Origin: Perna viridis | Taxonomy: Eukaryota | Reading direction: 5' to 3' | NCBI GenBank assembly: GCA_037379345.1 | Contig: CM074514.1 | Span: 1,922,001 to 1,986,000 of the forward strand | DNA: 64,000 nucleotides | In this document: in pieces, positions 12,001 to 18,000 of the stretch | Layout: the number at the start of each line of letters is the position of its first letter | How positions within the stretch are numbered: the first letter of the stretch is position 1 | Made by a program: the position numbers

Positions 12001-15000
12001 TTTTCCAAATGCTGGAATTTTTAATCGACTACATATTTGTCCAGTGTGGTGGAAGTGTTTTTCAACAAATGGTCGGCATTCCAATGGGAACAAACTGTGC
12101 TCCTCTACTTGCTGACCTATTCCTTCACTCTTATGAGGCTGACTTTATAGCTGATCTGATCAGAAAGAAAGAATATCGCTTGGCTAGATCCTTCAATCTC
12201 AGTTTCCACTATTTAGATGACATATTATCTTTAAACAATCCTAATTTCGGGGATTTGATACATCGCATCTACCCAAAAGAACTTGAGATAAAGGATACTA
12301 CAGACACTGTGAAGTCAGCCTCATATTTTGACCTACACTTAGAAATCGATGGTAAAGGAAAACTATTGACCAAACTTTACGACAAACGTGATGACTTTTC
12401 ATTCAGAATTGTCAACTTTCCTTTAATCTGTGGCTACATCCCTCCGGCACCTGCGTATGAAGTGTTCATATCACAACTCATACGTTATGCCAGAGCTTGC
12501 CGAAACTACACAGATTTTTTGTATCGCGCTAGAACTCTAACAAATAGGCTTCTGGAACAGGGTTATGTTGCTACAAGATTGAAGTCATCACTACAGAAGT
12601 TTTATGGTCGTCATCATGAACTCTTGGATCGTTATGGTGTATCCATCTGCACCATGAAAACTGATTTATTCAACAGGTCATAGTTTTCCTTTCCTCGTTT
12701 GTCTACCCCGGACTTGACTTTTTATGAGCAACTCGGCGGGTGTTTCTAGAAAAGCAGAGGACGCTTACCCTACCGGTGCACCTGGTCCATGCTCCCAGTT
12801 TTTAGTGGAGTCTGAGTTGCTCATTTGCTTTTGTTACTTTGTATGTATGATTTTAGTTACTTTATGTTCTTTGTTGTGTATGTCTGTTTTCCATGTCTGG
12901 TCTTTGTCCCTGAATTACATTCTTTTGATTACCACTATAACCTTGGTTCCCTTGATTACTCTTTCAATTATGTCAGGAAATTTTCTCCACAGGTCAAAAT
13001 TTTAAGAAAAATATTTGAATTGCTTTTCAGTAGTTTTTAAATGTAAGAACTTCTTGTTTTGCATTACACATACCTGTTAACCTTTTAAAGGCTTTAAGTG
13101 AAATACTCCTTAATTCAAACTTCTTTTAGAAGGATATTTAGCATAGGTAAACTTATTGGAAATATAAATACATAATTGCATTTACAAATTAAACTTACAT
13201 AATTGATTGACTGTTTGTACATTCTAATGCTAATGTAGTTTTACAAATAATTGCTTTTATTTAGTGTCTTAGTGTTAAACTTGTTTGTATCAGTAGCTTG
13301 TCTCTTTTTGCCTTTACCATTTATTTGTTATCTTATTTCAGATCTGTGTTGTTACGATTGTCTTCCCCAATAGTTTTACTGGCTATTCTCTACCAACAGT
13401 TGATAATAACGTCTGGGGAAGCAGCAACTTCAGTGAAGAATTGTGGCAATGATAGGTGGTCAGCTGCAGGGTCTGGACTCAGAGGTGTTGTTAAGGTTTG
13501 TATCCATTTAGAATTATGGGAATGATAGGTTGTCAGCTGTAGGGTCTGGACTCAGAGGTGTTGTTAAGGTTTGCATCTATGTAGAATTATGGGAATGATA
13601 GGTTGTCAGCTGTAGGGTCTGGACTCAGAGGTGTTGTTAAGGTTTGCATCTATGTAGAATTATGGGAATGATAGGTTGTCAGCTGTAGGGTCTGGACTCA
13701 GAGGTGTTGTTAAGGTTTGCATCTATGTAGAATTATGGGAATGATAGGTTGTCAGCTGTAGGGTCTGGACTCAGAGGTGTTGTTAAGGTTTGCATCTATG
13801 TAGAATTATGGGAATGATAGGTTGTCAGCTGTAGGGTCTGGACTCAGAGGTGTTGTTAAGGTTTGCATCTATGTAGAATTATGGGAATGATAGGTTGTCA
13901 GCTGTAGGGTCTGGACTCAGAGGTGTTGTTAAGGTTTGCATCTATGTAGAATTATGGGAATGATAGGTTGTCAGCTGTAGGGTCTGGACTCAGAGGTGTT
14001 GTTATGGTTTGCATCCATGTAGAACTGTGGCAATGATAGGTGGTCAGCTGCAGGATCTGGACTCAGAGGTGTTGTTAAGGTTTGCATCTATGTAGAATTA
14101 TGGGAATGATAGGTTGTCAGCTGTAGGGTCTGGACTCAGAGGTGTTGTTAAGGTTTGCATCTATGTAGAATTATGGGAATGATAGGTTGTCAGCTGTAGG
14201 GTCTGGACTCAGAGGTGTTGTTAAGGTTTGCATCTATGTAGAATTATGGGAATGATAGGTTGTCAGCTGCGGGGTCTAGACTCAGAGGTGTTGTTAAGGT
14301 TTGTATCTGTGTAGAACTGTGGTAGTGATAGGTTGTCAGCTGTAGGGTCTGGACTCAGAGGTGTTGTTAAGGTTTGCATCTATGTAGAATTATGGGAATG
14401 ATAGGTTGTCAGCTGTAGGGTCTGGACTCAGAGGTGTTGTTATGGTTTGCATCCATGTAGAACTGTGGCAATGATAGGTGGTCAGCTGCAGGATCTGGAC
14501 TCAGAGGTGTTGTTAAGGTTTGCATCTATGTAGAATTATGGGAATGATAGGTTGTCAGCTGTAGGGTCTGGACTCAGAGGTGTTGTTAAGGTTTGCATCT
14601 ATGTAGAATTATGGGAATGATAGGTTGTCAGCTGTAGGGTCTGGACTCAGAGGTGTTGTTAAGGTTTGCATCTATGTAGAATTATGGGAATGATAGGTTG
14701 TCAGCTGTAGGGTCTGGACTCAGAGGTGTTGTTAAGGTTTGCATCTATGTAGAATTATGGGAATGATAGGTTGTCAGCTGTAGGGTCTGGACTCAGAGGT
14801 GTTGTTAAGGTTTGCATCTATGTAGAATTATGGGAATGATAGGTTGTCAGCTGTAGGGTCTGGACTCAGAGGTGTTGTTAAGGTTTGCATCTATGTAGAA
14901 TTATGGGAATGATAGGTTGTCAGCTGTAGGGTCTGGACTCAGAGGTGTTGTTATGGTTTGCATCCATGTAGAACTGTGGCAATGATAGGTGGTCAGCTGC

Positions 15001-18000
15001 AGGATCTGGACTCAGAGGTGTTGTTAAGGTTTGCATCTATGTAGAATTATGGGAATGATAGGTTGTCAGCTGTAGGGTCTGGACTCAGAGGTGTTGTTAA
15101 GGTTTGCATCTATGTAGAATTATGGGAATGATAGGTTGTCAGCTGTAGGGTCTGGACTCAGAGGTGTTGTTAAGGTTTGCATCTATGTAGAATTATGGGA
15201 ATGATAGGTTGTCAGCTGCGGGGTCTAGACTCAGAGGTGTTGTTAAGGTTTGTATCTGTGTAGAACTGTGGTAGTGATAGGTGGTGAGCTGCAGGATCTG
15301 GACTCAGAGGTGTTGTTATGGTTTGCATCCATGTAGAACTGTGGAATGATAGGTGGTCAGCTGCAGGATCTGGACTCAGAGGTGTTGTTAAGGTTTGTAT
15401 CTATGTAGAACTGTGGCAGTGATAGGTGGTTAGCTGCAGGATCTGGACTCAGAGGTGTTGTTATGATTTGAATCCATGTAGAATTGTGGCAATGATAGGT
15501 GGTCAGCTGCTGGGCCTGGACTTTCTATGCTAGAGGTTGTCTGGCAAGCTTGTTTCTGTGGCATCCAATAGGGTATGGAGGAATGGAATTTCAATTTCTT
15601 TGCCGTAGGTCTGGACTAAGAGGTGTTGTTAAGGTTTTTGTCAGTGAAGAACTGTGATAATAATGCTAGTAGATGGTCAGCGTCATGATTTTTACATAGG
15701 TTTGAAAATATTATGGTGTATATTTTACTTGTTCGCACTTTAAAATTGCTACTTTAAAATTCATGAATTAGACAGATTTTTCAAAGAGATGAAACACAAA
15801 GATAATCATCTTTGAACAACTGTGTGATGTTAATTGTTCAAAATTGTTAAAATAACTAGATTTTTCAAAGAAGAAACACAAAGATAATCATCTTTGAACA
15901 ACTGTATGATGTTAATTGTTCAAAATTGTGAAAATAACTGTCTTTCATAAATAGTTTCACATCATTTATTTTTGGGCCTTTCACAGCTTGCTTTATTGTA
16001 TGGGTTTTTCCCATCAAAGACTGTATGATGACCTGAAGAAGTTTAATTGTTCTTTGCTTGGCATTTGGTGGTTGACTGTCTCATTGGCAATCATACTACA
16101 TCTCCTATTTTAATATTTATATATAGTTGAATTTAATTTATTCCAAAATTGTTTGTTGTTTAATAAAAACAATTAGAGAAATTTTTCTCAGTATTTTAGA
16201 TGTTGACTACATTCTTCATACTAATACTTATTTTCTTTACATTGACAGTGTTGGGAATCTTACGTTGGACAACAATTATACAAGTTGGTGCTGTTAGATT
16301 TGTTAGTAGAGTGTGGTATCATACTGTTTGGTAACATACCTAGAAGGTAAGGCATTAAGATACCTAGAAGCTATTGTAATAACACACCTAGAAGGTAAGG
16401 CATTAAGATACCTAGAAAATGAGGCATTAATTTACCTAGATTGTAAGGCATTCACATACCTAGAAGGTGAAGCATTAACATACCTGGAAGGGGAGGCATT
16501 AAATATGGTTCAATTGAATCAAAAGCGGCCCCTAGTACTGTAATAAACAGAATACCAGCAGTTTTGAAGTCAAGATAGAATTGTTACAGCGACTCCCATA
16601 GGCCGAGATATTATGTTCTGTCCTGAAACTGTTTATCAGTGACATTACAGTCGATTTGATATTACACTGTCTTAGGAAATTACCGATATGTTTGTGTACC
16701 ACGGTAGTAGCCTTAGATAGAAAATTTCAGGTAATAAGAACAATGAAGAAATGACAAAGTTGTTGATCTTACAAGCAGAGAATCAATGATATGTTTAAAA
16801 CAGAAGTTGGAAACTTTAATTGTTTTAGTTTGATTTTTTTTCTACAAATTTAGGATGCATTATATTTTCACCTGTATAAGTTTTGGTCATAAGTGATATC
16901 AGAATTGGGGTTTTTTATGTCAGGTTATCATTTTCTTATGTCAGAAATAGGATTTTTTATTCAGGCTTTTTTTTTCAATGGATAGTAAAATGTTCCCCAT
17001 GAAAATAGCTGCCAAATGCAACACTATAACTGATAACACTTGACTGGCATTACATAAATATTTTGCCAATACAGGTGGTTATGGCATAGAAAAGAACCCA
17101 AATAGAGAAGTAGCCTAATAAAATATAGGTATATTCTGTGAAGCAAAATAAATGGCATGTATGTGGCATTCTTTACTTAGGCCAAATTGTGTCAGTATTT
17201 TTATTTGTGCAAAAAACATCGGCCTTATCAATCACTGAACAGTTTTGCTGACAGGTACCATAGGGGGACATCTCAAACATGTTATTTGAATGTATTTTTT
17301 TTTCTCTACAGTATAGTATACAGCAAGTTCAAAGATAAATCTAAGTTGGTGAGAATGATTGGTCCTCAGGAGTTTGATCTGACACAAAGTGTTGTTGATA
17401 TAGTATACTCACAAAATATTTGTTGGTAAGTTTGAAAAATAGCATGCATTCTTAAGAAACATGTGTGTGGTTTATCATGATACATTGAAATAAAGAGCAG
17501 TACTAGTCACCCTACTTCAAGGGGTACTTGTAAGGGGTTTAGATATCAAAACAAATTTCAGTTTGTCTTGTCATTTCTTTACAATCAACAGTCTGAAGGG
17601 GTATTACAGTAAGACTATGGTTTAATCATATTGATGTTCCTCATTTTGTTTGTATGTTGTGTACAAGTTATAATTTTGTACTTGTTCTGACATGTACAAA
17701 TTTTGCCTGTACATGTTATAAGGTGTAAAAAATTGCTCGAAAATGATTTCACTGGTACAATATTGAAATGAATCTTTAATATGTGAAGAATTGTCAAATG
17801 AAATAGAAATGGGAATGTGATCAAAATTACCAGTAAGAAATGATAAGTATGAAAGAACTTAATTATAACATTAGAAAAAGACATACACCGATTTCTTCTT
17901 AAACATATTGACTGATTGTAAAAAAAAATACCCTTATGGGTAAACTCTATGATGTTCATTAATTAACAAAAACAGTTTATTTTACTCCAGAGCTCTATTA

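What the first reader, a model, noticed from the sequence alone, without database searches (positions are those of the whole stretch)
13439..15522. 2.1-kb array of ~28 AG-[57 nt in-frame exon copy]-GT cassettes
Seen: each 73-bp unit is a 57-nt, 19-codon copy of the exon end (N-Y/C-G-N-D-R-L/W-S-A-V/A-G-S-G-L-R-G-V-V-K, no stop in the consensus), flanked by AG and GT and separated by a 16-nt GT..AG spacer. The AG comes from the exon's own AAG codon. This is the configuration predicted for intron or exon creation by tandem duplication of a junction. The 16-nt spacer is too short to splice, but skipping one or more units would give >=89-nt introns and phase-0 cassette exons. These would add 19-aa repeats to the loop just before the CWE motif (extracellular TM5-TM6 loop in TMC topology). 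Simple use of a downstream donor runs into TGA at 13523. The polypyrimidine tract is weak, so cassette use is speculative.
Basis: partly seen in the sequence, partly recalled or inferred. Interest (0 to 1): 0.7.

Follow-up and report, generated by a model that had tools for sequence, protein, structure and literature searches.

The report
Splice-junction minisatellite in mussel TMC intron
A 2.1-kb tandem array in an intron of a mussel TMC channel gene is made of about 28 copies of the exon's own end and its splice donor, and it most likely is spliced out unused, like the "mirage" minisatellites of amphioxus and the human F7 gene.

Summary
TRF finds 28.6 copies of a 73-nt unit at 13437-15522. 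Each of the 25 in-register copies is a 57-nt copy of the end of exon 10 plus a 16-nt gt..ag spacer.

The host is a TMC7-like gene of a mytilid mussel, not human. A second TMC paralog lies downstream.

The origin by tandem duplication of the exon/intron junction is supported. Cassette-exon use is not:
- 33 of 36 related proteins carry one copy joined directly to CWE. The other 3 are genome-annotation models of Mytilus coruscus that read through an array at the same junction.
- The pseudo-acceptors score like random intronic AGs.
- The copies vary as neutral DNA would.

The closest known kind is the minisatellite whose first unit spans an exon/intron boundary: amphioxus "mirages", and human F7, IFI6 and CBS. 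In these, generally only the outermost site is used.

New here:
- Six of 14 tandem arrays in the two TMC genes span a splice junction, against about 1 expected (P about 2e-4, post hoc).
- One of the six lies in the same intron of the paralog.
- M. coruscus has an array at the same junction.

Verdict: new member of a known kind, moderate interest.

The parts
13342..13495 (+). Exon 10 of the TMC7-like gene (154 nt, ends in phase 0). Its last 57-66 nt are the template of the repeat.
   Evidence: tblastn of P0003 and P0004. AG/GT flanks and phase arithmetic. Relatives read ...CGNxRWSAxGSGLRGxVK|CWE.
13430..13502 (+). Inferred founder segment: 66 nt of exon end plus the first 7 nt of intron 10 (73 nt in all).
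   Evidence: The 3'-most relic copy keeps TCAGTGAAG (9 of 9 with exon 13430-13438) after a 7-nt GTTTTTG. Alignment score 42 against a shuffle mean of 18 and maximum of 35. This is an inference from one relic.
13437..15522 (+). The 73-nt tandem array (28.6 copies). Its first unit spans the authentic donor at 13495|13496.
   Evidence: TRF, register listing, 27-mer count.
13512..15336 (+). 25 in-register repeat units of 6 sequence types. Order, with the exon as A: A BBBBBB C D BB E F C D BBBBB C D BB E G. A 13-unit (949-nt) higher-order duplication is present.
   Evidence: identity is 98.6% at a lag of 13 units and 94-97% at the other lags.
15337..15522 (+). Three degraded units: a 1-nt deletion, a lost GT, and a truncation.
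15523..15700 (+). Decayed tail of the array, with a relic copy at 15608-15700.
13496..16248 (+). Intron 10 (2,753 nt, phase 0). About three quarters of it is the array.
16249..16346 (+). Exon 11, which starts the TMC domain (CWESYVGQQLYKL...).
   Evidence: Pfam PF07810, E 3.9e-08. tblastn.

Best explanation
The array is a non-coding intronic minisatellite of the 'mirage' type.

Origin (inferred). A 73-nt segment spanning the donor junction of exon 10 of a mussel TMC7-like gene was duplicated in tandem. It held about 66 nt of exon end plus about 7 nt of intron. It then expanded by unequal exchange or slippage, including one duplication of a 13-unit block. The interior was homogenised and the distal edge decayed.

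Splicing (inferred from relatives and from the F7 precedent, not shown for this species). The whole array is removed as part of intron 10. The most upstream donor, the one contiguous with the exon, is used. The roughly 25 downstream donor copies stay silent. The 57-nt pseudo-exons are not recognised because their acceptors lack a pyrimidine tract and the 16-nt spacers are far too short to be introns.

Effect (inferred). The likely consequences are length polymorphism, a longer intron and a stock of decoy splice sites. It adds no protein repeats.
For: - Array and junction anatomy.
- The 19-residue segment is single-copy and joined directly to CWE in 33 of 36 related proteins that hold both landmarks. 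Twelve of these come from short (2.4-6.6 kb) Logan/ENA contigs that look like transcript assemblies. The rest are mainly RefSeq isoform models of five Mytilus species.
- In M. coruscus a transcript-like protein (P0011) is identical to the genome model P0005 at 563 of 565 aligned residues on the N side and 261 of 261 on the C side. It lacks the model's 302-residue repeat insert.
- Position-weight scores were built from the 28 donors and 28 acceptors of this locus. The unit acceptor scores -0.2 bits (69th percentile of 1,327 decoy AGs, below all 28 authentic sites). The commonest unit donor scores 2.6 bits (87th percentile of 1,516 decoy GTs, below all 28).
- No coding constraint: 11 of 57 exon-like columns vary against 4 of 16 spacer columns. 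Seven of the 11 are at codon positions 1 or 2.
- Higher-order structure typical of unequal exchange. The edge relic is more exon-like than the interior.
- No copies elsewhere in the window. No Rfam family. No unusual RNA fold (z -1.2) and no inverted repeats.
- Precedents read: Ebner et al. 2010, PMC3087553, section 16 (mirages do not disturb regular splicing). Borensztajn et al. 2006, PMC1557585, abstract, introduction and discussion (only the most upstream of identical donors is used).
Against: - No RNA or protein of the window's own species was available. The nearest relative, P0003, is 90% identical in this exon, so silent decoys are inferred, not seen.
- Two units (14242 and 15191) carry a donor identical over 11 nt to the authentic one.
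- Three units (type D) encode exactly the exon's 19 residues.
- 24 of 25 units are open in frame, so rare use cannot be excluded.
- The authentic donor AAG|GTTTGT is atypical: it is the only GTTT among 28. This leaves room for a regulatory role of the repeated copies.
- In human IFI6 and CBS, the two pseudo-sites nearest the authentic donor are used as well (PMC1557585, introduction).
- The weight matrices rest on 28 sites each and are crude.
Confidence: 0.85

Rival explanations
1. Cassette-exon array. By skipping one or more units, the spliceosome includes 57-nt phase-0 pseudo-exons, adding 19-residue repeats before the CWE motif.
For: 25 of 25 in-register units have AG...GT flanks and 24 of 25 are open in frame. 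The length of 57 nt keeps phase 0. Three units encode the exon's exact peptide.
Against: 0 of 33 canonical relatives show an extra copy. The only 3 proteins with copies are M. coruscus genome models that read the copies in a shifted frame, and they are contradicted by a near-identical transcript-like protein. The acceptors are no better than random AGs. The introns needed (16 or 89 nt) are shorter than any of the 27 in this locus, whose minimum is 190 nt. The variation is neutral. A library-wide phmmer search found no TMC with more than one matched stretch; of its 4 hits, 2 are TMCs.
Confidence: 0.04
2. Splicing-regulatory array. The repeated donor copies, or the G-rich unit, recruit U1 snRNP or other factors. 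This would help or tune use of the weak authentic donor, or protect the long intron.
For: The authentic donor is atypical (GTTTGT), and so is the donor of the homologous intron in the paralog (GTTACA). An array of exon-end copies sits at the same junction in M. coruscus. The region has a strong G over C skew (0.30).
Against: Nothing here shows function. The units vary freely, including at the donor itself (4 of 25 are ATG|GT; the +6 position varies). In the F7 system the downstream copies neither helped nor competed (PMC1557585, discussion). No conserved fold.
Confidence: 0.08
3. Assembly artefact: a short duplication inflated by mis-assembly of long reads.
For: Fifteen of 26 units are identical.
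Against: There are seven unit types in an ordered higher-order pattern, a decaying distal edge and a relic copy. An independent assembly of another species has an array at the same junction.
Confidence: 0.02

Closest known systems
'Mirage' minisatellites of amphioxus (Adh3, troponin C, globins BflGb6/BflGb9, PGBD5)
   Same: These are tandem, minisatellite-like duplications whose unit spans an exon/intron boundary, at donor or acceptor side. Many units keep AG/GT signals, regular splicing is undisturbed, and they show concerted evolution inside with divergent edges (PMC3087553, section 16; PMC3902484, one passage). Here all of this holds: the first unit spans the donor, the interior is homogenised, the edge relic is divergent, and both donor-type and acceptor-type arrays lie in the same locus.
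   Different: The host is a mollusc, not a cephalochordate. This array has about 28 copies, against 3-6 in the globin examples. Undisturbed splicing is inferred here from relatives, not shown by RT-PCR. The original Adh3 paper was not held and is known only through the two citing papers.
Human F7 intron 7 VNTR (37 bp) and the similar arrays in IFI6 (6-16), CBS, LMNB2 and PDGF
   Same: The first monomer spans the exon/intron boundary, so the authentic donor is followed by identical pseudo-donors. In F7, LMNB2 and PDGF only the most upstream site is used (PMC1557585, abstract, introduction and discussion).
   Different: The F7 unit holds only 4 nt of exon. Here it holds 57-66 nt, so each unit also looks like an open, phase-0 pseudo-exon with an AG in front. 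In IFI6 and CBS the authentic donor and the two pseudo-sites nearest to it are all used. Whether that happens here is unknown; it would give a premature stop at 13523.
Intron gain by tandem duplication of an AGGT-containing segment (Rogers model; potato RdRp, vertebrate ATP2A1 cases)
   Different: No intron was gained. Intron 10 exists at the same position and phase in the paralog, and the junction is the same in all relatives. The copies lie inside a pre-existing intron.

Membership tests
Junction-spanning ('mirage') minisatellite | Head-to-tail tandem array of a unit of about 10 to 160 nt | tested here: met
   Period 73, 28.6 copies, 94% matches.
Junction-spanning ('mirage') minisatellite | The unit contains an authentic exon/intron boundary, and the outermost unit is the real junction | tested here: met
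   Unit 0 is the end of exon 10 plus the donor at 13495|13496. Relatives confirm the junction.
Junction-spanning ('mirage') minisatellite | Regular splicing is kept and the copies are not in the mRNA | tested here: inconclusive
   33 of 36 related proteins are single-copy and the 3 exceptions are annotation read-throughs. No RNA of this species was available.
Junction-spanning ('mirage') minisatellite | Length instability or polymorphism between alleles | not testable with these tools
   Only one haplotype is in hand.
Tandem cassette or alternative exon array | Copies separated by introns long enough to splice, each with a pyrimidine tract and branch site | tested here: not met
   Spacers are 16 nt. 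The acceptor score is -0.2 bits, at the 69th percentile of decoys. The shortest local intron is 190 nt.
Tandem cassette or alternative exon array | Copies present in transcripts or proteins | tested here: not met
   0 of 33 canonical relatives. No multi-stretch TMC in the representative library. Not tested in the same species.
Tandem cassette or alternative exon array | Purifying selection on the copies' coding sequence | tested here: not met
   11 of 57 exon-like columns vary against 4 of 16 spacer columns. Seven of the 11 are at codon positions 1 or 2, and one is a nonsense change. The numbers are small.
Intron gain by tandem duplication (Rogers model) | A new intron, absent from relatives, bounded by the duplicated AG|GT | tested here: not met
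   The intron position and phase are shared with the paralog (37386|38575) and the junction with all relatives.
Transposon-borne satellite (Helentron or MITE arrays of bivalves) | Unit unrelated to the host gene and dispersed in many copies | tested here: not met
   The unit is the host exon's own end. There are 0 copies outside 13470-15634 in the window. The rest of the genome was not available.
TMC (transmembrane channel-like) gene, as host | TMC domain PF07810 beginning with CWE | tested here: met
   Exon 11 peptide matches PF07810 at E 3.9e-08, 34.2 bits against a cut-off of 25. All 19 hits carry PF07810.

The most novel reading that the evidence does not exclude
Mussel genomes may carry a systematic excess of minisatellites that start exactly at splice junctions.
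- In this one locus, 6 of 14 tandem arrays span one of 56 junctions, against about 1 expected.
- The same intron is hit independently in two old paralogs, once at the donor side and once at the acceptor side.
- An array of copies of the same exon end sits at the same junction in Mytilus coruscus.

If general, this would point to a duplication mechanism aimed at splice junctions, or to selection that retains such arrays. It would extend 'mirages' from amphioxus to lophotrochozoans. Their unexplained origin, and their proposed role as raw material for new exons and introns, could then be tested genome-wide.
Probability: 0.3. Interest if true: 0.6.

Novelty: new member of a known kind. Interest (0 to 1): 0.35.

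Why it matters
As a single array it is ordinary. It is a large, well-preserved example of a known oddity, and it does not appear to change the protein.

Three practical points follow.

1. Such arrays mislead gene prediction. The M. coruscus TMC models in UniProt and NCBI carry a 302-residue insert that a near-identical transcript-like protein lacks.

2. The array offers a natural test of donor choice. About 25 near-identical donors follow a weak authentic one, in an animal far from mammals.

3. Junction-spanning arrays are dense in this locus. Their origin is called unclear in the amphioxus literature, and mussel assemblies would let that be studied at scale.

Tried and rejected
- Pfam on the exon 10 peptide: no family.
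- Rfam on the whole window: no match at gathering score.
- RNA fold of two units: z -1.22, and 20 of 200 shuffles fold as well. Inverted repeats in 13300-15800: none. So there is no sign of a structure that hides the decoy sites.
- Library-wide phmmer with the exon 10 peptide: 4 hits. Two are TMCs with one matched stretch each. Two are unrelated repetitive proteins, P0042 and P0044, which I take as spurious.
- Word search with the open frame inside the paralog's array (38024-38425): no hit in the 73-233 residue range.
- Word search with the 302-residue insert of P0005: only P0005 itself in the 631-2011 residue range. Neither search says anything about the DNA of other species.
- Dating the array, common origin against recurrence, from the M. 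coruscus protein: left open.
  - The repeat there has a period of 25 residues and is read in a shifted frame.
  - Its M-I-D residues fix an Asp codon in the exon's frame, as in the window's exon. All five Mytilus species have Val in the exon at that place, which suggests an origin before that substitution.
  - The unit seems to reach further into the exon (a D-S-T match) than the window's unit.
  - Without the DNA this cannot be settled.
- The Adh3 'mirage' paper (PMC117041) is not held.
- Literature searches for such arrays in bivalves found none. The one mollusc paper returned, on abalone TSSK1-like, describes an intronic minisatellite that its text does not say spans a junction. This covers only the held library.
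Full report
**What is there**

The window has no N and 32% G+C. It is not human. The exon peptides match TMC7-like proteins of Mytilus species at about 75% identity. They match an unnamed, transcript-like protein (P0003) at 90% in the exon in question.

Mapping P0003 and P0004 onto the window by tblastn shows two tandem TMC paralogs on the + strand.
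- Gene 1 has 17 exons, 703-21448. Their lengths sum to 2,373 nt, and all internal junctions are AG/GT.
- Gene 2 has at least 12 exons, 32112-44704.

I searched exon by exon.

Exon 10 (13342-13495) ends in phase 0 with ...NCGNDRWSAAGSGLRGVVK. Exon 11 (16249-16346) starts the Pfam TMC domain with CWESYVGQQ (E 3.9e-08).

**The observation**

TRF finds 28.6 copies of a 73-nt unit at 13437-15522: 94% matches, no indels, score 3612. A 27-nt core occurs 29 times, all on the + strand within 13470-15634, with none expected by chance.

In register, the exon end is unit 0 and 25 further units follow.
- Each has 57 nt of exon-like sequence plus a 16-nt spacer that begins GT and ends AG.
- 25 of 25 have the AG and the GT.
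- 21 of 25 end AAG|GT and 4 end ATG|GT.
- 24 of 25 are open in the exon's frame.
- Three more units are degraded, and a decayed tail runs to about 15700.

Reading on from the exon meets TGA at 13523. Read continuously, all six frames are closed.

**How the array was built**

There are seven unit types in an ordered pattern: A BBBBBB C D BB E F C D BBBBB C D BB E G. Identity between units 13 apart is 98.6%, against 94-97% at other lags. So a block of about 13 units (949 nt) was duplicated inside the array, as unequal exchange does.

The commonest type (B, 15 copies) differs from the exon at four positions of the 57. Type D (3 copies) differs only at two synonymous positions.

The 3'-most relic copy reads ...GTTAAG, then seven bases GTTTTTG, then TCAGTGAAGAAC.... 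The alignment score is 42, against a shuffle mean of 18 and maximum of 35.

Array edges escape homogenisation, as noted for amphioxus in PMC3087553, section 16. I therefore infer that the founder segment was about 66 nt of exon plus about 7 nt of intron. On this view the '16-nt spacer' is 7 nt of intron plus a diverged copy of exon sequence.

The array lies in an old intron. The paralog has an intron at the same place and phase (37386|38575). No intron was gained.

**Are the copies used as exons?**

The evidence says no, with one gap.

(a) Relatives. Of the 39 proteins P0003-P0041 inspected contain both landmarks (LLRLSSP upstream, CWE downstream).
- 33 of the 36 have a single copy joined directly to CWE.
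- Twelve of the 33 come from short Logan/ENA contigs of 2.4-6.6 kb, which I take to be transcript assemblies (an inference from contig length).
- The rest of the 33 are mainly RefSeq isoform models of M. galloprovincialis, M. edulis, M. trossulus and M. californianus.
- The 3 exceptions are genome-annotation models of Mytilus coruscus from one contig (P0005, P0036, P0037).

(b) Splice signals. Position-weight scores were built from the 28 donors and 28 acceptors of this locus.
- The unit's acceptor scores -0.2 bits. That is the 69th percentile of 1,327 random intronic AGs and below all 28 authentic acceptors scored leave-one-out (lowest -0.1).
- The commonest unit donor (AAG|GTTTGC) scores 2.6 bits, below all 28 authentic donors (lowest 2.8).
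- Two units carry GTTTGT, exactly as the authentic site does.
- The matrices are small and crude.

(c) Intron size. The smallest of the 27 introns of the two genes is 190 nt. Cassette use would need 16 nt, or 89 nt if one unit were skipped.

(d) Constraint. 11 of 57 exon-like columns vary, against 4 of 16 spacer columns. Seven of the 11 are at codon positions 1 or 2. The changes include a TGA and four K-to-M changes that also spoil the AAG before the GT. This looks neutral, though the numbers are small.

(e) Wider search. A phmmer search of 1.84 billion representatives with the exon peptide gave 4 hits. The two TMCs have one matched stretch each, and the other two are unrelated repetitive proteins.

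The gap: no RNA or protein of the window's own species was found, so silence of the copies is inferred.

**The M. coruscus models**

P0005 carries 302 extra residues between ...GSGLRGDVK and CWE. They have a 25-residue period. There are about 11 copies of NV[VA]MID..., which is the exon end read one base out of frame, and one copy in the exon's frame.

A transcript-like protein, P0011, is identical to P0005 at 563 of 565 aligned residues on the N side and 261 of 261 on the C side, and lacks the insert. So M. coruscus has an array of copies of the same exon end at the same junction, and the insert is a prediction artefact.

The residues M-I-D in the shifted frame fix an Asp codon in the exon's frame. 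That matches the window's exon (GNDRW), whereas the exon of all five Mytilus species has Val there. This hints that the array is older than that substitution. However, the unit there seems to reach further into the exon and has a 75-nt period. Common descent and recurrence therefore both remain open. I could not see the DNA, because no eukaryotic DNA collection was available.

**What it most likely does**

I commit to a silent junction minisatellite (confidence 0.85). The whole array is spliced out with intron 10, and the donor contiguous with the exon is chosen.

The F7 work showed that, among identical consecutive donors, the most upstream one is selected by an oriented process. The downstream ones are functional but unused (PMC1557585, abstract, introduction and discussion). 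Amphioxus mirages likewise do not disturb splicing (PMC3087553, section 16; PMC3902484, one passage).

The same F7 paper notes that in IFI6 and CBS the two pseudo-sites nearest the authentic donor are used as well. Here that would give a premature stop.

A regulatory role is possible but unsupported (0.08). Decoy donors might help a weak authentic site: GTTTGT is the only GTTT of 28, and the paralog's homologous donor is GTTACA. No special fold or inverted repeat was found, and no Rfam family.

**Comparison and novelty**

The kind is known: a minisatellite whose outermost unit spans an exon/intron boundary. The membership features that could be tested are met. Undisturbed splicing is inconclusive, and polymorphism is untestable here.

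The array is not a cassette-exon array, since three defining features are not met. It is not an intron gain, and it is not a transposon-borne satellite.

I found no report of such arrays in bivalves in the held library. The original Adh3 paper was not held. The additional files of Ebner et al. could not be seen and may hold unit alignments relevant to the comparison.

**What else the locus shows**

Of the 14 distinct tandem arrays inside the two genes, 6 span one of the 56 mapped junctions.

| Array | Period (nt) | Junction spanned |
|---|---|---|
| 6046-6156 | 32 | donor of exon 3 |
| 13437-15522 | 73 | donor of exon 10 |
| 16332-16502 | 24 | donor of exon 11 |
| 18672-18882 | 55 | acceptor of exon 13 |
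| 33735-33973 | 21 | donor of a gene 2 exon |
| 37672-38611 | 56 | acceptor of the gene 2 CWE exon |

In each donor-type array the real site is the first copy. In each acceptor-type array it is the last.

I collapsed the arrays to one unit each and placed seeds of the same lengths at random. This gives 1.06 junction-spanning arrays on average, and 6 or more in 47 of 200,000 trials (P about 2e-4). The test is post hoc and covers one locus.

The sixth array lies in the intron homologous to the one under study, in a paralog about 40% identical to gene 1 across the exons aligned, so it arose independently.

**Verdict**

The origin by junction duplication is supported and cassette use is not. This is a new member of a known kind. 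Interest is 0.35, raised a little by the local excess of junction arrays and by the array at the same junction in a second species.

Noticed in passing
window 37672-38611: Acceptor-type junction array in the paralog, in the intron homologous to the one studied. It has about 17 copies of a 56-nt unit: 16 nt of intron end with TTTCAG, plus the first 40 nt of the CWE exon (CWENYIGQQLYR). The authentic copy is the last. Two copies, including the one just upstream of the authentic one, have CTG in place of the CAG acceptor.
   Followed up: partly
window 16332-16502: A 24-nt array (7 copies) whose first unit spans the donor of exon 11 (...CCTAGAAG|GTAAGGCA). The second copy has lost the GT.
   Followed up: partly
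window 18672-18882: A 55-nt array (3.8 copies) holding the acceptor TTTTACAG plus the start of exon 13 (LGMMFSP). The authentic copy is the last.
   Followed up: partly
window 6046-6156 and 33735-33973: Two further donor-type junction arrays: 32-nt units at the donor of exon 3 of gene 1, and 21-nt units at the donor of the gene 2 exon 33423-33739.
   Followed up: partly
window 703-21448 and 32112-44704: Six of 14 tandem arrays in the two TMC genes span one of 56 splice junctions, against 1.06 expected under random seed placement. Six or more occurred in 47 of 200,000 simulations. The test is post hoc.
   Followed up: yes
window 13496 and 37387: The donors of the homologous intron are both atypical: AAG|GTTTGT in gene 1 and AAG|GTTACA in gene 2. 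At position +3, 24 of the 28 donors have A.
   Followed up: no
P0005, P0036, P0037 (Mytilus coruscus TMC models): These public gene models carry a 302-residue insert that is a read-through of an intronic repeat array. A near-identical transcript-like protein lacks it. P0004 (M. galloprovincialis) fuses the two tandem TMC paralogs. P0018 (M. edulis) lacks the CWE exon and carries in its place a long unrelated insert that I take, by eye and untested, for transposon protein.
   Followed up: partly
window 11613-12683 and 27048-27612: A 356-residue open frame in intron 9 has a weak reverse-transcriptase match (RVT_1, E 0.0044, below the cut-off). A related fragment lies in the intergenic region. 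Both are probably decayed retroelement copies.
   Followed up: partly
window 57188-57766: The end of this open frame matches the N-terminal repeats of COP9 signalosome subunit 3 (PF22788, E 1.2e-11). A third gene therefore lies downstream on the + strand. Its exons were not mapped, and its tandem arrays were not included in the junction test.
   Followed up: no
window 33423-33739: This gene 2 exon holds about 50 residues (STTETVEINQ...KTQQTT) that are absent from the M. galloprovincialis model P0004 in the tblastn alignment. This is either a lineage-specific insertion or a stretch spliced out in that model.
   Followed up: no
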